A DNA stretch of 38,045 bases, taken from a virus (taxonomy: Duplodnaviria; Heunggongvirae; Uroviricota; Caudoviricetes). The translations under genes were made by a program, and so were the position numbers. Below are positions 1 to 38,045 of this stretch, in pieces; the stretch's first letter is position 1; each line of letters begins with the position of its first letter. The DNA lies in the IMG/VR virus record IMGVR_UViG_2778261204_000006, positions 1 through 38,045 of that record; one strand, 5' to 3'. The notes under the pieces were generated by a model, which saw only the letters and a program-made list of their open reading frames with translations, was not told where the DNA came from and searched no databases.

Positions 1-624
1 TTACCGACAAACTCGTCGTAGATCAACTCTGGCAATCTGTTCTGCAGGTATATAGGTTGCCAGAGTTCCCCATCCGTCATCTGCCACACCACTATCGCAT
101 TCTGTCCAGATATTGCTCCCGACTGTAGTCCGGTGCGTGACGTATAAGATTATATCTCCCTTATTACCTAACGTGACAGGACCGTTAGGCCGTCCTGCAA
201 ATCGCCCGGGGGCTCGTGAAAGTAAAACAGAGCCATCCTTAAGATATACATAGATTTCAGAAAAAGTGAAATCCATCTGATTGAACAATGACTGCCACGC
301 TGAATGAGTATCATCAGACCATGAGATGTTTTGCTTATGCAGAAATTCATACATCCATTTGCGACCGTATCTGCGCCACAACGCACCGTAAATAAAAGCG
401 CAAAGAAGCGCTGGTGGCGTTGCAAGCCACGAATTCAGACCTGCCCACATAACAGCCTGGTAAACCATCATTGACAGCAGGCCAAAAATCAGCGTCGTAA
501 ATGTCACCTCGATGGGCTTGTGATGGTCTTTCAGGCCCACGTTCGCAATAAAATAGCCGATGTATCCACTGGTCAGTGTCACCAGTGTTGCCCACGGCAG
601 ATTCAGCAGGGATGCATCAAACAT
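1..624 (-). CDS. hypothetical membrane protein (about 3 predicted TM helices plus about 120 aa soluble C-terminal domain); moron-like cargo
   Basis: ORF track 207 aa; strong RBS GGAGG 5 nt before ATG at 624; immediately preceded by an intrinsic terminator; hydrophobic N-terminal segments in translation. Confidence 0.55.
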   Translation of the reverse strand: MFDASLLNLPWATLVTLTSGYIGYFIANVGLKDHHKPIEVTFTTLIFGLLSMMVYQAVMWAGLNSWLATPPALLCAFIYGALWRRYGRKWMYEFLHKQNISWSDDTHSAWQSLFNQMDFTFSEIYVYLKDGSVLLSRAPGRFAGRPNGPVTLGNKGDIILYVTHRTTVGSNIWTECDSGVADDGWGTLATYIPAEQIARVDLRRVCR

Positions 625-653
625 ATTTCCTCCGGTGATATGTTTTTCTGCCA

Positions 654-691
654 GAATAAAAAAAGCGCAACAGGTTATCCATTGCGCTTTT
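654..691 (-). terminator. rho-independent terminator after the small gene downstream of mor
   Basis: Perfect 10-bp stem (661-670 pairs with 682-691), 11-nt loop, followed on the minus strand by a run of about 8 T. Confidence 0.5.
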
Positions 692-718
692 CATAAACCG
701 GGAATTTATTGACGCTCG

Positions 719-955
719 TTAACACTTTCGTGGCGGTGGTGGTGGGTTACGTAAAACTTTCCCGTAATACAAAACACACTTTTCATCAGGCCCGATATGC
801 AGACGTGAGTTGTCAATCAGTCGGTCGCACTCCCGGAGAACATATCTCGCCTCAGTTGAAGTCAGACCGTCAAAAAAATGCCGGATAATTTCCATCGCCA
901 TATCTGCATGGTCTGCCTTCTTCAGGGAGGCGCTGTTGGGGGTTTTATAGCGCAT
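719..955 (-). CDS. hypothetical small protein
   Basis: ORF 719..961; preferred start ATG at 955 with GAGGTG RBS; no recognisable family. Confidence 0.4.
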   Translation of the reverse strand: MRYKTPNSASLKKADHADMAMEIIRHFFDGLTSTEARYVLRECDRLIDNSRLHIGPDEKCVLYYGKVLRNPPPPPRKC

Positions 956-972
956 TATCACCTCGCTTTTGA

Positions 973-1359
973 TTAATCCCGGCTGTCATTCGGTTCATCA
1001 TCGTCTTCGAATAACTGCCCCTGCAACCGGCTGATTTCTTCCTTTCTTACGCGCTTTACCAGGTTGTAAATCCAGGGAACTGAAACCCTGAATCTGCGGG
1101 ACAGTTCGTGGTGGTTACGTCCGTTAAACGCCTCATAGATTTCACGGTCACGCTGGCTTATCTTCCATCTCATCCCCATAGGAAAATAAACGTTTTGCCC
1201 GCCCCAGACCTGCATCATGCGGTTCGCGACGGCCTGACCAATCTGGTCGGCAACTTCGGGCTCAATATCAATAATCTCGCGAACGGTCTCAGAGGTATGC
1301 TGTGCCAGTTCCACCAGGAGTTCCGGCCCCTTACTTCGAAACTGATTCAGGTCGCTCAT
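973..1359 (-). CDS. Mor/C-family transcriptional activator (phage middle/late gene activator)
   Basis: 128 aa; size and C-terminal HTH-like region fit the Mu Mor/C family; GGGAG RBS; located at the distal end of the early arm as in Mu. Confidence 0.65.
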   Translation of the reverse strand: MSDLNQFRSKGPELLVELAQHTSETVREIIDIEPEVADQIGQAVANRMMQVWGGQNVYFPMGMRWKISQRDREIYEAFNGRNHHELSRRFRVSVPWIYNLVKRVRKEEISRLQGQLFEDDDEPNDSRD

Positions 1360-1780
1360 GTTTGACTCCCGCAGCTCTGTGCTGCCACTTCTTCAGTTTC
1401 TCAATAACACTGCTTGCCTGTTCAGTACTGAGCCAGTGCAGGGCGCTGATGCCCGTTTCCCGCTTGATCCACCGCGCTAATGCATTTTCTGAACGGTCAC
1501 GAACAATGCCGGCAGCAGCCATTTCAAGCCATAGCGCACGAATTTTCCTGGACTGCGGATGGTCATCCAGCGGTAAACCGGAGCTGGCTTTTCTGGCAGG
1601 TTTAACCCGAAAGCCTTTCTTTTTCATGGATTCCAGCACGCAGTTTAGTTGTGTGGTATCCATTCCTTTGGTTGAGGCTTTACAGGTCAGCCCCTGTAAC
1701 ATCTGGCGGTAGGTGTCTTCATCCAGACCCAGTTCATTACGGGCAATATGGATAAGCTGAATCAGTCGTTTTTTCTGCAT
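1331..1780 (-). CDS. GemA-like protein (Mu gp16 family)
   Basis: 149 aa; N-terminus KRLIQLIHIARNELGLDEDTYRQML matches the recalled GemA/DUF1018 pattern; 3' end overlaps the mor start. Confidence 0.55.
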   Translation of the reverse strand: MQKKRLIQLIHIARNELGLDEDTYRQMLQGLTCKASTKGMDTTQLNCVLESMKKKGFRVKPARKASSGLPLDDHPQSRKIRALWLEMAAAGIVRDRSENALARWIKRETGISALHWLSTEQASSVIEKLKKWQHRAAGVKHERPESVSK

Positions 1781-6165: not shown

Positions 6166-7935
6166 TTAGTTGCCGTTAACAATGCTGATAACGCTGCTGC
6201 GGGCCGGCGTGGTCAGCGTGGCCATGACTTCATCCAGTGCGGCTTCCGGTACGCCGTCCGGATACTGTGCCGTTAACTGGCGGTAATGTTCCGGCGTCCA
6301 GGTAAGGCCGTTGGCGCTGAACTTCCCGCGCAGGGCTTTCGCGGCCTCCACATGAGTCATGGGACGCTGTTCAGTGCGCGGTCCGCGTACGTCAGAGGCC
6401 TGACCTCGCTTCGGTATACAGGCCGGAAGTGTGGCGTCATCAATATGTTTATACGGGTCAAGCCGCCCGCCGAACGGCAGCGCCTTCGCCTTGCGTGCGG
6501 CAGCTGCATCTGCGGCGTTGTCTGTACCGGTGACCAGCGCTTCGGTTTCTTTTGCCGCCATCTGCGCCGGGGTTTCCGGCAGGGCTTTGTAACTTTCGCC
6601 AAATACCGCCGCGCCTTCAGCAAAGCCAAACTCGTTCTTTCTGACCTCTTCGACCAGGAAGAACGTCTCGTGGCCGTCCTCACCGGTCAGAACCACCTGT
6701 GCCACATCGCTGCGCCACGGGTTACGGGTAATCATCAGTTTTTCACCGACCAGTACGCCCGGTACCGTTGATACGTCAAATTCAGTGCCCCGGAACGAGA
6801 CACGAAGTTTTGGCGTGACTTTGCGGAGTTCTGGTGCTGCCACAGCCAGTTCACGGCATACCTCAACGGAAGGCGCTTTTTTCAGCTGCTCAGCAGTAAT
6901 CTTCAGCCAGATATCCGTGCGGGTTTTACCGTGGCGGCTGTGAACAGCTGTTGCGTTAAAGTGGCTGCGCCATTTCGCGGCCAGCGCGTTGAGTTCTTCC
7001 AGACTGTGAACCGGCCGGAACTTCAGACCCGGCTCCAGCTTGCGTTCGATAATGTCTCGCGCCTTTTCCACCTGTCCGGTGGCGCGGGCGTTATGCGGCT
7101 TGTGCGCTATCAGGTCGATGCCCAGTGAGCGGCACATGTTTTTCGTCATACCCGCGGTGTTTGCCGAGCCGGGGTCGAGATAGAGTATTTTCGGCACGCC
7201 GTGCAGCACGTCTGCGCCGCCACGCTCCTGCATGGCATTGATAAGCACAGAACACAGGTTCTCACCGGATTCCGCACCCGTCACATACTCAACGTAAATC
7301 CAGCCGCTGGCATGGTCGGTAATCTCGTAACTCCACACGCGGTCACTGGCGATACGGGCAAGGTTAGCGGGCTTGTTCTTGTAGAATTTCGCGCTGTCCA
7401 TCACCTGCAGCCCTTTATGTCCATTGCTCAGGTAGTAAAGCGTGCAGAGTGAGGCGTCAATCTGCCAGACATGATTGGGATGCAGACTGGCCACTTCGGT
7501 ATGTGGTGCAGGGGCATCCAGTTGTTCCGGGTGCAGGCCATAGTTACGCAGGGCGCGACTGATGGCATCTTCGGACAACGGGAAAAACTCACCGGTGGTT
7601 TCATCTGTTCTGCCTGCGGAGATAAAGCCGTTAGCCCGCAGGGTTTCCACTGCATCCGCGATGGAATAGAGACGCTTACCGTTCTTGCGGGTGGCCTCAC
7701 GTAGTGTGGCAGATATCAGCGCGGCTTCGTCGCGGGTCAGGGCGCTGCGCCCGGCATCGGCGCGTTTTTTGCGTTTATCAGTCACAGATACCTCCTTCAG
7801 CCTGCGCAGCAGAGTGGCGCGGGACATGCCAAGTTCAGCACAGGCAGCGTCGTATATTGCACCGCGTTTACCATGCCCCGCGTCACGTGCCGCGCGGGCT
7901 GTTTCAACCAGTTTTTCAGTCAGTGCCGGGGTCAT
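6166..7935 (-). CDS. DDE transposase (Mu A-like)
   Basis: 589 aa; acidic catalytic-motif candidates (VWQIDAS, YLDPGSANT); paired with a downstream ATPase as in Mu A-B. Confidence 0.85.
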   Translation of the reverse strand: MTPALTEKLVETARAARDAGHGKRGAIYDAACAELGMSRATLLRRLKEVSVTDKRKKRADAGRSALTRDEAALISATLREATRKNGKRLYSIADAVETLRANGFISAGRTDETTGEFFPLSEDAISRALRNYGLHPEQLDAPAPHTEVASLHPNHVWQIDASLCTLYYLSNGHKGLQVMDSAKFYKNKPANLARIASDRVWSYEITDHASGWIYVEYVTGAESGENLCSVLINAMQERGGADVLHGVPKILYLDPGSANTAGMTKNMCRSLGIDLIAHKPHNARATGQVEKARDIIERKLEPGLKFRPVHSLEELNALAAKWRSHFNATAVHSRHGKTRTDIWLKITAEQLKKAPSVEVCRELAVAAPELRKVTPKLRVSFRGTEFDVSTVPGVLVGEKLMITRNPWRSDVAQVVLTGEDGHETFFLVEEVRKNEFGFAEGAAVFGESYKALPETPAQMAAKETEALVTGTDNAADAAAARKAKALPFGGRLDPYKHIDDATLPACIPKRGQASDVRGPRTEQRPMTHVEAAKALRGKFSANGLTWTPEHYRQLTAQYPDGVPEAALDEVMATLTTPARSSVISIVNGN

Positions 7936-10266: not shown

Positions 10267-10297
10267 CCGGAAAGCATTGTGCTTTCCGGTTTTGTTT
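10267..10297 (+). terminator. rho-independent terminator downstream of the repressor-like gene
   Basis: CCGGAAAGC / GCTTTCCGG 9-bp stem, 5-nt loop, followed by TTTTGTTT. Confidence 0.5.
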
Positions 10298-11061
10298 CAG
10301 AAGTTGCAGATTACCAGTTCACGGCGCGGCGTGGGTTTCCCCGCCAGACTGTAGTTGATATTCACCGTCTGTATGTTCAGTTCAGTGAACACCCGACGCA
10401 TCTGCGGAATGTCGTTCACCGAGATAATCATCTTTCCTCTGATGCACCGGGCCAGTTCTGCGAGTAGTGTGTAGTTCTCTTCAGGAAAATCCACACCATA
10501 GCCTTCCGTCCCCAGATAGGGCGGATCACAGTAGAACAACGTGTGCGGACGGTCATAACGCTTAATGCACTGGTGCCAGTCCATGTGCTCTATCACCGTT
10601 CTGGAAAGCCGCAGGTGTGCCGCTGACAGTTCTTCTTCAATACGTAGCAGGTTGAAGCGTGGCGGAGATGTGGTGGATGTGCCGAAGCTGTGCTCTGCCA
10701 CCTTGCCACCAAATGCCTGCTTCTGGAGGTAGTAGAACCGTGCCGCACGCTGGATATCCGTCAGTGTTTCTTCCGGGGTGATCTGCAGCCATTTGTAGAT
10801 CTGCCGGCTAACCAGCGCCCATTTGAACTGGCGGATAAATTCTTCCAGGTGATGTTTTACCACCCGGTACAGATTCACCAGTTCACCATTGATATCGTTA
10901 ATGACTTCGAGCTTGCCGGGAGTCTTGAGAAAATAGAGCGCAGCTGCGCCGCAGAACGGCTCCACATAACATTCATGCGCAGGAAACAGCGGCAGGATGT
11001 GTTTTGCCAGGCGGCGTTTGCCACCAATCCATGGAACGATGGGTAATGTCTGCGTTTTCAT
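10297..11061 (-). CDS. Dam-like N6-adenine DNA methyltransferase
   Basis: 254 aa; DPPY catalytic motif (LFYCDPPYLG) and SAM-binding FxGxG-like motif (EPFCGAAA). Confidence 0.85.
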   Translation of the reverse strand: MKTQTLPIVPWIGGKRRLAKHILPLFPAHECYVEPFCGAAALYFLKTPGKLEVINDINGELVNLYRVVKHHLEEFIRQFKWALVSRQIYKWLQITPEETLTDIQRAARFYYLQKQAFGGKVAEHSFGTSTTSPPRFNLLRIEEELSAAHLRLSRTVIEHMDWHQCIKRYDRPHTLFYCDPPYLGTEGYGVDFPEENYTLLAELARCIRGKMIISVNDIPQMRRVFTELNIQTVNINYSLAGKPTPRRELVICNF

Positions 11062-11250: not shown

Positions 11251-11466
11251 TTATCCGGGGCGATTTTCTGACCTTATCTGGTCCAGGGCATAAGTGATCC
11301 CTTCTGCAAAAACAGAAGTATCGAACTGCTTTTGTATTTCCTGAAAATGAACAGTGGCACGACAGATACTCAGTTCTCCGCGATGTAACCGGATAATATC
11401 TTCCAGAACATTGTTCACTGCTTCGGCACGGCGCTGATGTTCTGTTAACGTTAATCGGGGATTCAT
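11251..11466 (-). CDS. hypothetical small protein (71 aa); uncertain
   Basis: AAGGAG RBS 6 nt upstream of ATG 11466, but start overlaps the divergent start of the 134-aa ORF. Confidence 0.35.
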   Translation of the reverse strand: MNPRLTLTEHQRRAEAVNNVLEDIIRLHRGELSICRATVHFQEIQKQFDTSVFAEGITYALDQIRSENRPG

Positions 11467-11869
11467 GATGCACTCCTTAAATGATGATTTTTATGTACTC
11501 ACCGGCAAAATATTCTGCCGATTACTGAACACGCATCCGGCACCTCAGGTTTTGATTTATTCTGGTTTTTTCGATATCCCGGACCAGGTTGATCACGACC
11601 AGAAAAAGTGCCGGTATTTTATTGATACGCTGATATGGCTTCGGGATAACAGCTATATTCGTTACTCTCAGTTGCTGGCTGTGGGAGCGGCTGATGTCGT
11701 CCTCACGGAAAAAACGCTCTGTCTGCTCAATGCCATGCCGACCTTTCTGCAGCCCCGGCCCGTACCATTTAAAGAGTCGCTTCTGGATGCAGTAAAAACC
11801 GGTGAAAATGCAGTCATCGCTGAATGCGTATCCCGGATTATGCGTTACGTGTTTAATGAACGTAAGTGA
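11465..11869 (+). CDS. hypothetical protein (134 aa)
   Basis: Exactly fills the gap between minus-strand genes; 3' end overlaps the P-loop gene by 25 nt; looks AT-richer than flanks by eye. Confidence 0.45.
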   Translation: MMHSLNDDFYVLTGKIFCRLLNTHPAPQVLIYSGFFDIPDQVDHDQKKCRYFIDTLIWLRDNSYIRYSQLLAVGAADVVLTEKTLCLLNAMPTFLQPRPVPFKESLLDAVKTGENAVIAECVSRIMRYVFNERK

Positions 11870-12588
11870 GGTTTATCCGCTGTCTGCATAATCCCGATAG
11901 CCAGTGCGAGGGGAAGCAATTCCGGGGAAACTCTTTCAAACAGCGATTCCCATTCTCCTCTCGCCATCACTCTGTCCAGCCCTCCCTCCAGCTGCATTTC
12001 AGCAATCTTCCTGATTTCCCGGAACAACGCCGCTTTGATCTCTTCGTGCTCAGCTTTATTTTCCGGTGTCAGAATGTATTCGTCGAAGAACCGGGGAGGC
12101 TGGTTAACGGGGATTGTGTTCACCGGGATGTGTTCCTGCTTCCCGTACTTCGGGGCCGAAAAACATTCTGTTGGCTGACCGGTGAGTTTACGTAACTCCT
12201 TCATGAGCAGCTCCTGATCGTAAACTGTCATCAGTGCCGCAATGGTGGCATGCAGTGCATCGGGCAGTATCCAGGGTTGCCGGCCCGTGGGGCATATAAC
12301 ATCCAGCAGCTCATTCGTCCGACAGATACGCTCCTCGCCGTATGACAACAGGCCCTGTCCCGTGTATTCCTCCAGCCTGATCACTGTGCCACCCCGTGGC
12401 TTCTGCCAGGTCGTCAGATCATCGCCATTCATACGGCGCTCATTCTCCACGTCAGCAGCATCGACAATGACGCTGTTTCCGAGTTCCTGTTTCACCACTT
12501 CCTCTATCCGCGCCAGTACGTAACTTTTACCGCTGCCCACAGGACCGGACACGGTGACAGTGATGACCGGATTCAGTGTGTGCGTCAT
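11845..12588 (-). CDS. P-loop NTPase/kinase-like protein of unknown function
   Basis: 247 aa; N-terminal Walker A VSGPVGSGKSY; GAGGAG RBS; divergent from the lysis cassette. Confidence 0.55.
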   Translation of the reverse strand: MTHTLNPVITVTVSGPVGSGKSYVLARIEEVVKQELGNSVIVDAADVENERRMNGDDLTTWQKPRGGTVIRLEEYTGQGLLSYGEERICRTNELLDVICPTGRQPWILPDALHATIAALMTVYDQELLMKELRKLTGQPTECFSAPKYGKQEHIPVNTIPVNQPPRFFDEYILTPENKAEHEEIKAALFREIRKIAEMQLEGGLDRVMARGEWESLFERVSPELLPLALAIGIMQTADKPHLRSLNT

Positions 12589-12659: not shown

Positions 12660-12699
12660 TTTAAAATCCTTCGCGCCCCGTATTTGTGATGCTGTCTCC
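12660..12699 (+). promoter_or_regulatory. candidate activator-dependent late promoter (lysis operon)
   Basis: TTTAAAATCC at 12660 and CTGTCTCC at 12692, 32 bp apart; same bipartite motif upstream of three other late units. Confidence 0.4.
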
Positions 12700-12718
12700 A
12701 CCAGACAAGGAGACACAC

Positions 12719-13069
12719 ATGAAAAACCTGAAAAAATTCATTCCCCCTGTTAAAAAACCTCGCCTCAGCGGCTGGCTGCTGACCTCAGTGCTGCTGCTGG
12801 GCACCATCGCTCTGGTATCGCCACAGCAGTTGCCTGTTGTGATCTACAAGCTGGCACTCATCACGCTGGCAGCAGTGCTGGGTTACTGGCTTGACCGTTC
12901 GCTCTTCCCCAAAGCCCGTCCCGGTCAGTACCTGAAACATGACAACAGGCTGATGGCTGAAGGGCGTTTCCCTGTGCAGACCGGCCTGCACCTGGTGTTT
13001 TCTGCTGCGTTAATCCGCCGCGCACTGATTGTTGCAGCAGTCTGTCTGGCTGTGGCAACAGGGCTGTGA
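12719..13069 (+). CDS. putative holin / lysis membrane protein
   Basis: 116 aa from ATG 12719 (AAGGAGA RBS); 2-3 hydrophobic helices; immediately upstream of and overlapping the endolysin. Confidence 0.5.
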   Translation: MKNLKKFIPPVKKPRLSGWLLTSVLLLGTIALVSPQQLPVVIYKLALITLAAVLGYWLDRSLFPKARPGQYLKHDNRLMAEGRFPVQTGLHLVFSAALIRRALIVAAVCLAVATGL

Positions 13070-33928: not shown

Positions 33929-34771
33929 ATGGCAAACCTACCTGAAACCCCGCAGTGGGAAGACGGCATCTATCAGATTGAGGTCTCTGACCCCGTTCTG
34001 GGCGGGCCTGACGGGATTTCTAACCGCCAGGGTAAACAACTGGCCAGCCGCACGCTGTACCTGAAACAACAGGTTGAGAAAGGCGGTACAGACCTTGCGA
34101 AACACATCGCGGCAGCAGACCCGCATACACAGTACGCACCGAAAGCCAGCCCGACATTCACCGGCACGCCAACAGCGCCCACGCCTGCAAATAGCGATAA
34201 CAGCAAGAAGCTGGCGACGACGGAGTTTGTGGCCAAAGCACTTGCGGCGCTTGCAGGCAGCGCCCCTGAAACGCTGGATACGCTTAAAGAGCTGGCGGAT
34301 GCCCTCGGTAACGATCCGAATTTTGCGACCACGGTGCTTAACAAACTGGCGGAGAAGCTGGCCAAAGACCAGAACGGCGCAGATATTCCTGACCCGGCGC
34401 TCTTTGTCAAAAACCTTGGTTTAGGGGAATCGGCGAAAATGCCTGCTGCGACAGCATTGGCCAGCAGTGCTGGTAACATCGCTATTCCAGTATTAATTGG
34501 TGGAGTACAACGAACAGCACTGCTTCAGTGGAAGATGGTATCAGTGCCGCAATCAGCAGACGGTAACATGGTAGTGGTTGACGACTCATGGCCGGTTGCC
34601 TTTCCTAATGCTTGCCTTTCCATCAATCCTTCGCTGTCCAGTTCTTTGATTTACGCGACCAGTGGAGCACCTTTTGTCAGCGCAGCGATTGTTGACCGGG
34701 TCAAATTCAAAGCCGCTTGCGCATACACGAAATCTAATTCAACAGTAACAGTATGGGGAGTGGGATATTAA
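33929..34771 (+). CDS. tail fibre protein (constant N-terminus plus currently expressed variable C-terminus)
   Basis: 280 aa; crossover repeat lies in frame at codons KNLGLGE; C-terminal part inside invertible segment. Confidence 0.75.
   Translation: MANLPETPQWEDGIYQIEVSDPVLGGPDGISNRQGKQLASRTLYLKQQVEKGGTDLAKHIAAADPHTQYAPKASPTFTGTPTAPTPANSDNSKKLATTEFVAKALAALAGSAPETLDTLKELADALGNDPNFATTVLNKLAEKLAKDQNGADIPDPALFVKNLGLGESAKMPAATALASSAGNIAIPVLIGGVQRTALLQWKMVSVPQSADGNMVVVDDSWPVAFPNACLSINPSLSSSLIYATSGAPFVSAAIVDRVKFKAACAYTKSNSTVTVWGVGY
34408..34429. repeat. left inverted repeat (gix/hix-like recombination site) CAAAAACCTTGGTTTAGGGGAA
   Basis: 22-bp perfect match to the reverse complement of 36241..36262. 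Confidence 0.75.
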
Positions 34772-35214
34772 TGACAGACTATGTATTCAGCCCGGCTGAA
34801 AATGCTTTTTATCTTGTGGCACTGAAAGACGATTATTTATCTGCTGGCACATGGCCGTCAGACGGCATCAATATAGATGCTGAAGATGCGCTAGTTTTCA
34901 TGGGGGTGCCTCCCGAAGGTAAAGTGCGTGGCATTGGTGATGATGGGTTGCCTTGCTGGGCTGATCTTCCGCCACCTACGCATGAAGAACAACTCGCAGC
35001 GGCTGACTCAGAAAAGCAGTCGAGAATTGACCAGGCCAACGATTATATGAATGGTAAGCAGTGGCCTGGCAAAGCAGCAATCGGGCGACTGAAAGGTGAC
35101 GAACTGGCTCAGTATAATTTGTGGCTTGATTATTTGGATGCGCTGGAAGCGGTTGATACTGCCAGCGCGCCAAATATCAATTGGCCTACACCTCCGGTCG
35201 GGCAGGCCAGCTAA
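34771..35214 (+). CDS. tail fibre assembly protein (Tfa/U-like)
   Basis: About 147 aa from ATG 34771 (TAATG overlap with fibre stop); conserved Tfa C-terminal pattern. Confidence 0.75.
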   Translation: MTDYVFSPAENAFYLVALKDDYLSAGTWPSDGINIDAEDALVFMGVPPEGKVRGIGDDGLPCWADLPPPTHEEQLAAADSEKQSRIDQANDYMNGKQWPGKAAIGRLKGDELAQYNLWLDYLDALEAVDTASAPNINWPTPPVGQAS

Positions 35215-35788
35215 CATCAGGAGCCGTCGAAACATCGACGGCTTTAACTGCAGTTTTATAAGCCATCCACGATGACAGTTTCTTTTTGCTTTCTTCGCTG
35301 ATATCACCGAGCATCAGCTCTACCCGCCAATCCGAGGTAAGATCATCTACCTGAGCGAGGAGCGTTTGTCGGTGTTGTTCTGCATCAGCAATATCACCTT
35401 GATGTTTTGCAGCAGAATCCGTGACCCATTTATCTCCGTCCCATTTATCATACGGTGATGCTGGAGCTGTGGGGGTTGTACCTTCGGGATAATCTCCCAG
35501 TGCCGTCACTACAACCTGTTGCATTGTCTCAATGTTATAAACGGTTTGACCTCTGTGATCGGTTATATATTCCCATGATGAAAGGTCTGCTGTACGGCAA
35601 ATGGCAAAACCCTCATTATTTTCACCTGGAGCATCAATGCAAGAATTGGCAGGAATACCAACCCCCACGGCGAGATACTCAACGGTTGAAGACAGATATT
35701 CAAGCGTCTCACCATCGAAGTTATAGACGGTGATTTCCCCTGCAACTATAGCGATCATGTCCTGGTTTAATTCAGCTTTAGCCATCAT
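35186..35788 (-). CDS. alternative tail fibre assembly protein (Tfa', inverted orientation)
   Basis: 200 aa; C-terminus VDVSTAPDVSWPARPEV parallels the plus-strand Tfa C-terminus. Confidence 0.7.
   Translation of the reverse strand: MMAKAELNQDMIAIVAGEITVYNFDGETLEYLSSTVEYLAVGVGIPANSCIDAPGENNEGFAICRTADLSSWEYITDHRGQTVYNIETMQQVVVTALGDYPEGTTPTAPASPYDKWDGDKWVTDSAAKHQGDIADAEQHRQTLLAQVDDLTSDWRVELMLGDISEESKKKLSSWMAYKTAVKAVDVSTAPDVSWPARPEV
35223..35250 (+). terminator. hairpin terminator candidate at the convergence point inside the invertible segment
   Basis: GCCGTCG-aaacat-CGACGGC 7-bp stem followed by TTTAACTGCAGTTTTAT. Confidence 0.35.
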
Positions 35789-36262
35789 GCAGCCCTCACA
35801 ATGTAGTTAAATGCAATATTCCGCGCACGGGTTTCTGTCGCTGTTCGTACTGAGCGGGAGGCATCAAACGTCCAGTTTGCAGCACCATATCCACCATCAG
35901 TGGACGGAGTTAAACCTAAGGATAAAAGCATTCCATCCTGACGGAATGGGCCGGAGTAAACGGTATCCTTGAAAAGCTGAGTGCGACCAAACGAACCGAC
36001 AATGTTCTGGATGGAGTCTGACTGAGCAGACAATAGGCTACGCCCCGTATCAACTCCGCGCCCGTCATCCCATCCACGGATAAACTCCCCGCGTAGATCA
36101 GGCAGTCTGAGCGCCGGATAGGCCAGTGCCAGCTTAGGGTACTGGGAGGCGGTAAACGCAGCCCCATTGCATTTGAGCCACCCTGTTGGTGGTGTCGCTG
36201 ACGGCCATGGAATGGGCACGCCAACCGGCAATGCAGAGCCTTCCCCTAAACCAAGGTTTTTG
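35785..36262 (-). CDS. alternative tail fibre C-terminal segment (Sv'-like), promoterless until inversion
   Basis: Reading frame through the right repeat encodes KNLGLGE as in the plus-strand fibre, then a distinct C-terminal domain (PDLRGEFIRGWDDGRGVD). Confidence 0.65.
36241..36262. repeat. right inverted repeat (gix/hix-like recombination site)
   Basis: TTCCCCTAAACCAAGGTTTTTG, reverse complement of 34408..34429. Confidence 0.75.
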
Positions 36263-36328
36263 GAAAAGCGGTTACACATAGCGAAATCTGTAAAAATCCT
36301 CCCGCCGCGACATAGAGGAGGAGAATTG

Positions 36329-36910
36329 ATGGCCGTCATTGGTTATATCCGTGTATCAACAATCGACCAGAACAGCGATTTACAGCGTAATGCACTCACA
36401 AGCGCAAACTGTGACCGCATTTTTGAAGACCGCATGAGCGGAAAAGTTGCCAGCCGCCCCGGTCTGAAACGCGCTTTAAAGTGCGTTAATAGCGGAGACA
36501 CCCTGGTCGTGTGGAAACTGGACAGGCTGGGGCGCAGCGTTAAGAACCTGATCGCACTGATATCAGAGTTACATGAACGCGGTGCCCACTTCCGCTCTTT
36601 AACAGACAGTATTGATACCAGCACAGCCATGGGGCGTTTCTTTTTCCATGTGATGTCGGCACTGGCGGAGATGGAACGTGAACTGATCGTCGAACGAACA
36701 CTGGCCGGGCTGGCAGCGGCCAGAGCACAGGGACGCATAGGTGGAAGGCCCAACGCATTAAAGCCGCATGAGCAGGAACAGATTGGGCGGCTATTGGCTA
36801 AGGGGCATACCCGCCAGCAGCTGGCCATTATCTACGGGGTGGGGTTATCTACACTCTACCGGTATTTTCCGGTAGATGGTCAGAGGAAGGATGACGCGAT
36901 AGGATTGTAA
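36329..36910 (+). CDS. serine recombinase DNA invertase (Gin/Hin/Pin/Cin family)
   Basis: 193 aa; N-terminus YIRVSTIDQNSDLQRNAL with catalytic Ser; TLVVWKLDRLGRS and C-terminal HTH; GAGGAGGAG RBS. Confidence 0.9.
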   Translation: MAVIGYIRVSTIDQNSDLQRNALTSANCDRIFEDRMSGKVASRPGLKRALKCVNSGDTLVVWKLDRLGRSVKNLIALISELHERGAHFRSLTDSIDTSTAMGRFFFHVMSALAEMERELIVERTLAGLAAARAQGRIGGRPNALKPHEQEQIGRLLAKGHTRQQLAIIYGVGLSTLYRYFPVDGQRKDDAIGL

Positions 36911-36944: not shown

Positions 36945-36987
36945 CATTTATCTCACGGAATGGGCGCATTTATCGCGCGGCGCATCA
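36945..36987. repeat. prophage right terminus with two CATTTATC motifs 22 bp apart (candidate transposase-binding sites)
   Basis: Motifs at 36945-36952 and 36967-36974; element ends ...GCGCATCA at about 36987. Confidence 0.5.
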
Positions 36988-38045
36988 GTCATCAGGCCGA
37001 GCGTAATCGTACCGGCAACAATTGACGGAAACAGCAAGAACAAACCGAAAACGTTATCGACCTGCAAATAGAGAATGCGGGCGATGTTGAAATACATATA
37101 GTGAAAATAGAGGCGAAAATAGTTTTTCCGTACGGCGCTAAACAGCTCGCGTACCGTAGGCGGCGTCGCGCGCGTGGCATCGTCTTCACCATAAACCAGC
37201 TCTTTACGGTAGGCGGCCTCTACTCGCTGGTTTTTAAACTCCAGCCCCGGCAGTTTGATCCCTACCACTGCCAGCAATCCGGTCCCCATCAGCGACCAGA
37301 CGATAGCGGCAATCACCAGACCATACGGAATGTGCCCGATAATCGGCAGCTCCGGCACATGCGCGGAGAGCGTTACCAGCACCGGCAGGAAGGCGATCAA
37401 CGTCATGATGGCGTTGATAAAACTGACGCCCATATTCTCCAGCGTTGAAGCAAAACGCATGGTGTCTTCCTGCACACGCTGTGCGGCACCTTCGATATGA
37501 CGCAGTTGTTGCCAGTTCGCCATGTAATATTCGTTCATCGCCGTACGCCAGCGGAACACATAGTGACTGACAAAGAAGTTGTTCAGTACACTGATCACCA
37601 CCGCGATCAGCGCAATCCCCAGAAAGACGCCCACTTCGCGGTAAAATTGTTCGATAGTGACTTTATGCGGCGAACTTAGCGCGGTTTGAATCAGATCATA
37701 GAACGGTGCATACCAGGCGTTGACGGCGACCCCGACTTCCACCAAAAACCAGGTGACGAAGATGATCAGTGCAGTACCGAGTATTGACCAGTATTGCCAA
37801 CGGTGCGGGCTGTAGATAAACCAGAAAAATGCAAAAAGTCCTACGCAAACAATGTAGTAAGCGTAAAAAATCAGGAAATCCAACGACCAGAAACGCGCGG
37901 CGCTAATCGGGATCTGCCCGGAAGCGCCGGTGATACGCGCCACCCAGTCACCCCCACCGGCTTGCCAGAAGATAACGGCAATCAATGCCCAAACAAAGGC
38001 CGAGAGAAAAAACGCTCCCGGCTTTGGGAAAAAAGACTTAAACAT
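36948..38045 (-). pseudogene. sbmA: sbmA (peptide antibiotic transporter) truncated by prophage insertion; last 13 codons are phage-derived
   Basis: Translation matches recalled SbmA from [10 protein letters not shown] through about residue 352 (…TITLGLMT), then diverges to [12 protein letters not shown] and stops at 36948. Confidence 0.7.

What the first reader, a model, noticed from the sequence alone, without database searches (positions are those of the whole stretch)
1..961. Moron-like unit at the end of the early arm: terminator followed by a strong-RBS membrane protein gene
After the small gene downstream of mor there is a clean intrinsic terminator (654-691), followed within 30 nt by GGAGG-ATG of a 207-aa protein with about three N-terminal transmembrane helices and a soluble C-terminal domain. 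A gene set off by its own terminator at an arm end is the classic signature of lysogenic-conversion cargo such as superinfection exclusion or abortive infection. The window starts at its stop codon, so downstream partners are not visible.
Basis: partly seen in the sequence, partly recalled or inferred. Interest (0 to 1): 0.5.

Follow-up and report, generated by a model that had tools for sequence, protein, structure and literature searches.

The report
Prophage-end membrane gene with hidden partner
The gene at the very end of this Mu-like E. coli prophage is dispensable cargo that encodes an uncharacterised inner-membrane protein, and just outside the window it is always paired with a tiny proline-tailed protein gene, a two-gene unit that also turns up in other prophages and beside known anti-phage systems, so it is a plausible but untested new phage-defence or toxin-antitoxin-like module.

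Summary
On the minus strand, mor (973-1359) is followed by a 78-aa ORF (719-955), a strong intrinsic terminator (692-654, -17.3 kcal/mol, U7), a GGAGG (633-629) and a 207-aa ORF (624-1). That protein has three N-terminal TM helices and a cytoplasmic Sm/SH3-like beta-barrel.

The gene is accessory. BcepMu, PhiKM and about 80% of closely related E. coli prophages end with mor. Its GC content is 47.6% against 54.9% for the prophage, and it is under purifying selection.

It is a divergent relative of Pfam DUF6338, with 522 representative clusters. It has no PADLOC hit and no literature. Relatives sit at the ends of other Mu-like prophages, after gpD in P2-like prophages, inside HK97-type head modules, and next to Thoeris, DRT-UG17/SLATT, Abi_alpha and McrA/TIR-caspase genes.

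New here: 21 of 25 family loci, against 10 of 366 control ORFs, carry a convergent 40-60-aa ORF that abuts the gene's stop. It ends in a Pro-rich basic tail (PPPPKK-like), is under strong purifying selection, and in Enterobacterales has a TTGAAA-N18-TAGAAT promoter. In the window's own genome it starts 18 nt beyond base 1.

A defence or exclusion function is inferred, not shown. No strong promoter for the 207-aa gene was found.

The parts
1..624 (-). 207-aa inner-membrane protein gene. It is a divergent relative of DUF6338 (PHROG 12870, unknown function) with 3 TM helices (N-out/C-in) and a cytoplasmic Sm/SH3-like beta-barrel (residues about 107-206).
629..633 (-). Shine-Dalgarno GGAGG, 4 nt upstream of the ATG at 624-622
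   Evidence: Read directly from the sequence.
654..692 (-). Rho-independent terminator (14-bp stem, 5-nt loop, U7) that closes the mor operon and insulates the 207-aa gene from early transcription
   Evidence: -17.3 kcal/mol. A hairpin plus T-run sits at the same position in all 9 homologous upstream regions compared, with different stems. It is absent after mor in cassette-free prophages.
653..681 (-). Candidate weak sigma-70 promoter overlapping the terminator: -35 TGGATA (681-676), 17-nt spacer, -10 TATTCT (658-653). Unproven.
   Evidence: It is the best-scoring promoter-like match (8 of 12) in the window. A match at the equivalent position ranks first in 6 of the 9 upstream regions and second in 2 more. 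It falls below the 9-of-12 threshold of the scan tool.
719..955 (-). 78-aa ORF between mor and the terminator. It has its own GAGG SD and a C-terminal tail NPPPPPRKC. It is a variable part of the cassette, present only in some variants.
   Evidence: An ORF is annotated or called at this position in L001, L026, L055 and L057 but not in L027, L028, L004-L007 or L021-L024. No Pfam, PHROG, PADLOC or phage-database match.
973..1359 (-). mor (Mor/C-family transcription activator). It is the last backbone gene of the early arm.
   Evidence: Pfam PF08765 at 5.2e-41. mor is the last gene in BcepMu, PhiKM and the cassette-free E. coli prophages.
1331..1780 (-). gemA (gp16 family), a backbone gene upstream of mor
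   Evidence: Pfam PF06252 at 1.1e-38.

Best explanation
Shown: the terminator plus 207-aa gene is the visible half of an accessory two-gene cassette. It is inserted between mor and the terminal transposase-binding repeats of a BcepMu-like transposable prophage of E. coli.

Gene 1 (in the window) encodes an inner-membrane protein with three TM helices and a cytoplasmic Sm/SH3-like barrel.

Gene 2 starts 18 nt beyond the window's first base on the opposite strand. It encodes a 50-aa hydrophilic protein read from a strong constitutive-type promoter (TTGAAA-N18-TAGAAT), and it converges on gene 1. This pairing is conserved across the whole protein family in gamma- and alpha-proteobacteria.

Inferred: the cassette benefits the lysogen or the element rather than serving phage replication. 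Most likely it is a toxin-antitoxin-like anti-phage (abortive infection or exclusion) module. In this model the membrane protein is the effector and perturbs the inner membrane through its holin-like 3-TM bundle, probably as an oligomer, because Sm barrels form rings. The small protein restrains it. Restraint could work through the small protein's Pro-rich basic tail (PxxPxK-like) docking on the SH3-like barrel, through convergent antisense transcription into gene 1, or through both. The upstream terminator keeps the effector from being driven by the strong early promoter.

Every step from 'benefits the lysogen' onward is inference.
For: **Accessory insertion**
- mor is the last gene in BcepMu, PhiKM and three sampled E. 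coli relatives, with about 155 nt to the genome end and no terminator.
- 132 of about 640 E. coli genomes with this mor/gemA carry the gene.
- GC is 47.6% against 54.9% for the prophage.
- In Klebsiella, Salmonella, Serratia and Citrobacter the gene is always directly after mor, at the end of prophages inserted at different host loci. This holds even where mor is only 28-35% identical.

**Real genes**
- dN/dS is 0.08-0.38 for gene 1.
- For the partner, 1 non-synonymous against 20 synonymous differences between L009 and L015, and pN/pS of 0.22 between L001 and L028.

**Conserved partner**
- 21 of 25 family loci against 10 of 366 control ORFs meet the criteria; Fisher p = 1.6e-23.
- An HMM of the enterobacterial partners hits 12 of 12 enterobacterial loci and nothing in cassette-free phages.
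- The promoter is conserved.
- The partner is present in the window's own genome, L057, which has 0 mismatches over 3124 nt.

**Mobile-cargo and defence neighbourhoods of relatives**
- After gpD in two P2-like prophages, one followed by RelE/HTH, McrA-like HNH and TIR plus caspase genes.
- At the repressor end of a true Mu-like prophage.
- Between head-tail connector and head-completion genes of an HK97-type module.
- Directly downstream of a ThsB(TIR)-ThsA Thoeris operon.
- Beside DRT RT_UG17, SLATT and AbiJ_NTD4 genes.
- Beside Abi_alpha/PDC-S47 and PDC-S67 genes.

**Fold**
- The TM part resembles 3-TM LydA-type holins weakly, E 0.015-0.1.
- No conserved catalytic residues across 77 diverse members, which argues for a non-enzymatic membrane or binding role.
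Against: - There are no functional data of any kind.
- PADLOC (2023) has no model for either protein, and no paper mentions DUF6338 functionally.
- Only a minority of the non-enterobacterial loci examined have recognised defence genes nearby. My sampling was small and neighbours were scanned unevenly, so no enrichment statistic can be given.
- No convincing promoter for gene 1 was found, so it may not be expressed in the lysogen at all.
- The Pro-tail/barrel interaction is purely a structural analogy. The tail in the window's own variant is degenerate (SPPKDKK).
- Co-variation between the C-terminal domain type and the partner type is confounded by physical linkage.
- The holin resemblance is weak and generic for 3-TM bundles.
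Confidence: 0.4

Rival explanations
1. Selfish addiction module. The pair is a toxin-antitoxin system whose only role is to stabilise the mobile elements that carry it (membrane toxin, labile small antitoxin or antisense RNA). It has no anti-phage activity.
For: - The pair is conserved and convergent, and the partner has a constitutive-type promoter.
- It occurs on many kinds of mobile element: Mu-like, P2-like, an integrase/primase island and resolvase-adjacent loci.
- The arrangement resembles 3'-overlapping convergent type I TA loci of prophages (own knowledge).
Against: - The partner transcript encodes a protein under strong purifying selection, unlike a purely RNA antitoxin.
- Chromosomally transposed prophages gain little from post-segregational killing.
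- The co-location with Thoeris, DRT and Abi genes fits defence at least as well.
- The two roles are not mutually exclusive.
Confidence: 0.2
2. Lytic-cycle accessory. Gene 1 is expressed by partial read-through of the terminator after induction. It acts in the phage's own cycle, for example as a lysis-timing or antiholin-like factor, by excluding superinfecting phage during lytic growth, or by modifying the membrane for release.
For: - It is on the same strand as, and immediately downstream of, the early operon.
- No strong promoter of its own was found.
- It has a strong SD.
- Its TM bundle resembles 3-TM holins in BFVD, E 0.015-0.1.
Against: - It is absent from about 80% of close relatives and from BcepMu and PhiKM.
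- A -17 kcal/mol terminator, conserved with the cassette and absent from cassette-free phages, separates it from the operon.
- The phage has a canonical holin-endolysin pair elsewhere.
- Family members occur in non-phage defence islands.
Confidence: 0.15
3. Host-fitness cargo unrelated to phages or to toxin-antitoxin behaviour. For example, a small membrane channel, a stress-response protein or an envelope-modifying protein, with the partner as a co-factor.
For: - The family is broad, with 522 representative clusters.
- Some chromosomal loci have no phage or defence hallmark, for example the Mesorhizobium loci L037 and L047.
- Three TM helices plus an Sm-like barrel loosely echo the MscS architecture (own knowledge).
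Against: - There is no match to MS_channel or any transporter family above noise.
- Most loci are on mobile elements.
- No metabolic or regulatory gene is consistently linked.
Confidence: 0.12

Closest known systems
Morons of temperate phages (e.g. HK97 gp15, lambda rexAB/bor/lom; concept of Juhala and Hendrix, as summarised in PMC4378225)
   Same: Extra DNA is present at one position in some phages and absent from close relatives. The base composition is atypical. The unit is separated from the neighbouring operon by a terminator. The product is a membrane protein. The reading as lysogen-benefit cargo is plausible.
   Different: The terminator lies upstream of the gene, not downstream. No clear promoter was found. 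The unit is two convergent genes rather than one. Expression from the repressed prophage is untested.
Pfam DUF6338 (PF19865), integral membrane family of unknown function
   Same: Half of the homologues (19 of 39) match it weakly, best E 1.4e-6. Precomputed Pfam calls and one NCBI name ('DUF6338 family protein') agree. Length and membrane N-terminus are similar.
   Different: The window protein itself gives no hit at E<=0.1, so this is a divergent sister group. The Pfam family has no known function, so membership explains nothing.
Membrane effectors of signalling defence systems with TM helices plus a cytoplasmic small beta-barrel (e.g. CBASS Cap15)
   Same: The architecture logic is shared: N-terminal TM helices and a C-terminal cytoplasmic barrel that could gate membrane disruption. 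Relatives occur next to Thoeris and DRT/SLATT genes.
   Different: There is no sequence similarity (one of 39 members hits Cap15_TM at E 0.32, which is noise). The barrel is Sm/SH3-like, not the Cap15 barrel. No cyclase or signal-generating gene is linked to it in the Mu-like prophages.
Prophage-borne convergent toxin-antitoxin loci with 3'-overlapping transcripts (type I, e.g. B. subtilis bsrG/SR4, txpA/RatA; own knowledge)
   Same: The genes converge with abutting or overlapping 3' ends. The candidate toxin is membrane-targeted. The location is on a prophage. The partner has a strong constitutive-type promoter.
   Different: The candidate toxin is 207 aa with a folded cytoplasmic domain, not a 30-60-aa peptide. 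The partner encodes a conserved protein (pN/pS 0.01-0.2).
Three-TM (LydA-type/class I) holins
   Same: The TM bundle is a 3-TM N-out/C-in bundle. Foldseek gives weak matches, E 0.015-0.1, over about 100 residues.
   Different: It is twice the size, with an extra 110-aa domain. It is not in the lysis cassette. The phage already has a PF13272 holin. The gene is dispensable among relatives.

Membership tests
Moron (phage accessory transcription unit) | Present at a given position in one phage, absent at the same position from closely related phages | tested here: met
   mor is the terminal gene in BcepMu, PhiKM and three E. coli prophages with 84-94% identical mor/gemA. 132 of about 640 E. coli genomes with this mor/gemA carry the gene.
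Moron (phage accessory transcription unit) | Own promoter upstream and terminator downstream | tested here: inconclusive
   Only a weak candidate promoter was found (TGGATA-17-TATTCT, 8 of 12), overlapping the upstream terminator. No plus-strand or downstream terminator was detected. Downstream there is instead a convergent gene.
Moron (phage accessory transcription unit) | Base composition different from neighbouring phage genes | tested here: met
   GC is 47.6% (GC3 46.6%) against 54.9% for the prophage. This is the lowest 7% of 624-bp windows, though some small early genes are equally low.
Moron (phage accessory transcription unit) | Expressed from the repressed prophage | not testable with these tools
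   This needs RNA-seq or 5'-RACE of a lysogen.
Pfam DUF6338 (PF19865) | Significant match to the family HMM | tested here: inconclusive
   The window protein gives no hit at E<=0.1. 19 of 39 homologues hit, best E 1.4e-6. Some relatives are precomputed as PF19865.
Known anti-phage defence systems (PADLOC-DB v2) | Match to a model of a described defence protein | tested here: not met
   There are no hits for the window protein, three distant homologues or the partner.
Defence gene by 'guilt by association' | Family members preferentially located next to known defence systems | tested here: inconclusive
   Positive examples are Thoeris ThsB/ThsA (L015), DRT UG17 with SLATT and AbiJ_NTD4 (L009), Abi_alpha with PDC-S67 (L012), and McrA-HNH with TIR-caspase and RelE (L039). 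That is about 4-6 of about 22 non-enterobacterial loci. No genome-wide background was computed.
Holin | Small membrane protein encoded in the lysis cassette next to the endolysin and required for lysis | tested here: not met
   The gene lies 12 kb from the lysis genes. The phage has a PF13272 holin at 12686-13069 followed by an SLT endolysin. The gene is absent from most relatives.
Toxin-antitoxin / abortive-infection pair | Two tightly linked genes, one toxic, the other neutralising | not testable with these tools
   Tight conserved linkage is shown. Toxicity and neutralisation need experiments.
MscS-type mechanosensitive channel | Match to MS_channel; TM3 pore helix followed by Sm-like beta domain and alpha-beta domain | tested here: not met

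The most novel reading that the evidence does not exclude
The DUF6338-like membrane protein and its convergent polyproline-tailed micro-protein form a previously unrecognised, widespread two-gene immunity module of mobile elements (522 representative clusters across Proteobacteria).

In this reading the micro-protein's PxxPxK-type tail plugs the SH3/Sm-like cytoplasmic ring of a holin-like effector. When micro-protein supply is lost during phage-induced shut-off, the effector is released and collapses the membrane. Supply could be especially sensitive because polyproline synthesis depends on EF-P, or because convergent transcription is disturbed.
Probability: 0.22. Interest if true: 0.75.

Novelty: new variant of a known kind. 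Interest (0 to 1): 0.5.

Why it matters
Both proteins are annotated only as 'hypothetical protein'. The membrane protein is seen on hundreds of E. coli contigs and the partner on more than a thousand. No defence database or paper covers them.

If the cassette protects lysogens, it adds a compact (about 1 kb) new family to the prophage-encoded defence repertoire of E. coli, Klebsiella and Salmonella. That is relevant to phage-therapy host range. It would also identify the mor-proximal end of BcepMu-like prophages as a cargo slot.

The strictly conserved convergent pairing of a membrane protein with a polyproline-tailed micro-protein is also an unusual and directly testable regulatory design.

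If it has no phenotype, it is one more uncharacterised prophage accessory gene.

Tried and rejected
- **Catalytic-site idea.** The 39-sequence alignment suggested invariant H35, S101, D104, D157 and H164. The 77-sequence diverse alignment leaves only Gly, aromatic and Pro positions conserved, so I rejected an enzyme reading.
- **SD-sequestering hairpin.** A hairpin around the start codon is not conserved in relatives, so I dropped it.
- **Phage database.** Only one distant hit, in 'Synechococcus phage Ssp-JY41', at the record end. It was uninformative.
- **Sequence search of the PDB with the family profile.** Nothing below E 0.6.
- **Foldseek afdb50.** The library was not available.
- **Literature.** Nothing functional was found for DUF6338, the WP accessions, Sm-like TM defence proteins, or proline-rich partner proteins.
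- **HMM of enterobacterial partners.** It did not detect the alpha-proteobacterial partners. I found those by position and composition.
- **Search for the same sbmA insertion among complete E. coli genomes.** This failed. I found the source by exact-protein look-up.
- **My look-up of the 78-aa ORF.** It used coordinates that cut off the first Met, so its negative result is void.
- **Mor-dependent promoter.** I could not test this because no reliable Mor-site model was available.

Full report
**1. What is in the window**

The window is a BcepMu-type transposable (Mu-like) prophage of E. coli with its early arm on the minus strand. The early-arm genes are:
- DDE transposase, 6166-7935
- an ExeA/MuB-like ATPase
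- Gam
- DUF2786
- gemA, 1331-1780
- mor, 973-1359

After mor come, in order:
- a 78-aa ORF (719-955)
- an intrinsic terminator (stem 692-660, U7 at 664-658, -17.3 kcal/mol)
- GGAGG (633-629)
- a 207-aa ORF (624-1) whose stop codon is the first three bases of the window

Hydropathy, the positive-inside rule and an AlphaFold2 model (pLDDT 79) agree on the protein's layout. It has three TM helices (N-out/C-in), a juxtamembrane helix, and a cytoplasmic beta-rich domain.

**2. It is accessory, not core**

- In the type phage BcepMu, mor is gene 1, 364 bp from the genome end.
- In PhiKM and in three E. coli prophages with 84-94% identical mor/gemA (ST131 strain 751, 21KM1392, O68:H12 97.3), mor is likewise the last gene. 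It lies about 155 nt from the terminal ...CATTTATCTCA repeats, and no terminator is detected there.
- Of about 640 complete E. coli genomes that carry this mor/gemA, 132 carry a homologue of the 207-aa gene.
- In Klebsiella, Salmonella, Serratia and Citrobacter the homologue (54-64% identity) is always the gene directly after mor. It sits at the end of prophages inserted at unrelated host loci, even where mor is only 28-35% identical.
- The gene has 47.6% GC against 54.9% for the prophage.
- It is under purifying selection, with dN/dS of 0.08-0.38.
- Its C-terminal half is mosaic. In strain ST69 the N-terminal half is 90% identical to the window protein and the C-terminal half only 51%, with raised dS. 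This indicates allele exchange by recombination.
- The phage has its own holin (PF13272, 12686-13069) next to an SLT endolysin.

**3. What the protein is**

- It has no Pfam, NCBIfam or PADLOC hit of its own.
- It matches PHROG 12870 (unknown function) at 5.5e-97.
- 19 of 39 homologues match Pfam DUF6338 weakly.
- A profile search of 1.84 billion representatives finds 522 clusters, almost all about 200-215 aa.
- Across 77 diverse members only Gly, aromatic and Pro positions stay conserved, which argues against an enzyme.
- Against viral models, the TM part weakly resembles 3-TM LydA-type holins.
- No paper says anything functional about DUF6338 or these accessions.

**4. The hidden partner**

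The exact window protein occurs in E. coli GCA_002468025.1 (locus L057). L057 is identical to the window over all 3124 nt compared and shares its insertion into sbmA. Beyond the window's first base, L057 carries:
- after 18 nt, the stop codon of a convergent 50-aa ORF (MATNNSKCDTFDSSEKPEGLVVATVSNSHKKKSSSGTSNKPEQSPPKDKK)
- that ORF's promoter, TTGAAA-N18-TAGAAT
- the prophage end, 366 nt beyond the 207-aa gene's stop

An HMM of this small protein hits 12 of 12 enterobacterial loci that have the membrane gene. It hits nothing in KP12, PhiKM or BcepMu. PGAP annotates the small ORF in some strains (WP_001571575.1), and it is seen on more than 1000 contigs as 'hypothetical protein'.

The same arrangement exists throughout the family in alpha-proteobacteria. 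There is a convergent 40-60-aa hydrophilic ORF whose stop lies -22 to +12 nt from the membrane gene's stop. It carries an aromatic-x-x-P-K/Q/R motif, often a GNYTPTT motif, and a C-terminal Pro-rich basic tail (PPPPKK, PPPSPKKK, PPPPPPSR).

I counted loci that have a convergent ORF of at least 30 aa ending within 30 nt of the stop, with at least 3 Pro in its last 12 residues and a K or R in its last 3. 21 of 25 family loci meet these criteria, against 10 of 366 control ORFs from the same loci (p = 1.6e-23).

The small ORF is a real gene. L009 and L015 differ by 1 non-synonymous and 20 synonymous changes in 41 codons. It has no Pfam or PADLOC family.

**5. Where relatives live**

Outside Enterobacterales the pair occurs in these contexts:
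- after gpD in two P2-like prophages, one followed by RelE/HTH, a McrA-like HNH nuclease and a TIR plus caspase pair
- outside the repressor at the end of a true Mu-like prophage
- between connector and head-completion genes of an HK97-type head module, and near tail genes of other prophages
- after a Prim-Pol/VapE primase in an integrase island
- after resolvase genes
- immediately downstream of a ThsB(TIR)-ThsA Thoeris operon
- beside DRT RT_UG17, SLATT and AbiJ_NTD4 genes
- beside Abi_alpha/PDC-S47 and PDC-S67 genes
- in some loci with no hallmark at all

This is the distribution expected of mobile cargo, and it is suggestive of defence. I could not compute a background, so I treat it as supportive evidence only.

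**6. How it most likely works**

Shown: this is an insulated, dispensable two-gene cassette at a prophage end that encodes a membrane protein and a small partner.

Inferred (overall confidence about 0.4): it is a toxin-antitoxin-like anti-phage or exclusion module.
- The membrane protein is the effector. It may act as a ring oligomer, since Sm barrels form hexamers and heptamers.
- The constitutively transcribed partner restrains it. Restraint could be at the protein level, through its PxxPxK-like tail docking on the SH3-like barrel. It could also be at the RNA level, through convergent transcription into gene 1. No terminator separates the two genes.
- The cassette-specific upstream terminator prevents the early promoter from over-expressing the effector.

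Expression of gene 1 in the lysogen is the weakest link. The only candidate promoter (TGGATA-17-TATTCT, embedded in the terminator) matches 8 of 12 positions. A match at the equivalent position ranks first in 6 of 9 upstream regions and second in 2 more.

The rivals are a purely selfish addiction module (0.2), a lytic-cycle helper expressed by read-through (0.15), and phage-unrelated host-fitness cargo (0.12).

**7. Comparison and verdict**

The unit behaves like a moron in distribution and composition. It fails or leaves open the promoter and terminator criteria.

It is a divergent relative of DUF6338. It is not a member of any described defence family, holin family or MscS.

I rate it a new variant of a known kind: prophage accessory membrane-protein or TA-like cargo. 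The conserved convergent polyproline-tailed partner is the new element. Interest is 0.5: it is not surprising in kind, but it is a well-defined, widespread and cheaply testable candidate.

Noticed in passing
window 36948-38045 (and prophage right end at 36987): The prophage is inserted into the host gene sbmA, which encodes the importer of microcins, bleomycin and proline-rich peptides. The ORF starts with the native SbmA N-terminus ([10 protein letters not shown]) at the window's last base and runs into phage-end sequence. The other sbmA fragment lies beyond the left end in L057. GTCATC flanks both ends, as expected for a target-site duplication.
   Followed up: partly
window 33929-36910: A Gin-like serine invertase (36167-36910, +) sits next to two opposed sets of tail-fibre and tail-fibre-assembly genes (33929-35214 on the plus strand; 35186-36339 on the minus strand). 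This looks like a Mu G-segment-like invertible host-range switch.
   Followed up: no
window 719-955 (-): The 78-aa ORF between mor and the terminator ends in NPPPPPRKC. This polyproline-plus-basic tail resembles the tails of the convergent partner family. In this cassette variant the partner's own tail is degenerate (SPPKDKK). An ORF at this position occurs only in some variants. It could be a second ligand for the barrel, but this is untested.
   Followed up: partly
L057 3125-3490 (just left of window base 1); also L001 11641-12000: A 16-19-bp inverted repeat (CATTGAAAyCATCCTT) brackets the partner gene's promoter and its start codon in the enterobacterial loci inspected by eye. It could be an operator, or the 3' stem-loop of the membrane-gene transcript. 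It remains unexplained.
   Followed up: no
L001 11650-11790 (phage left-end about 140 bp): The terminal about 140 bp of this prophage type also matches 109 places on E. coli plasmids, many from poultry isolates, at 84-88% identity. This suggests Mu-like end remnants or insertions on plasmids.
   Followed up: no
window 11465-12588: Two ORFs lie between the dam methylase (10297-11061) and the holin: 134 aa on the plus strand, and 247 aa on the minus strand with a GSGKS P-loop-like motif. Neither has a Pfam or PADLOC match. This may be another cargo slot of the prophage.
   Followed up: partly
window 397-412 (-): A short terminator-like hairpin (5-bp stem plus T-run) lies inside the 207-aa coding region. 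It is probably chance.
   Followed up: no
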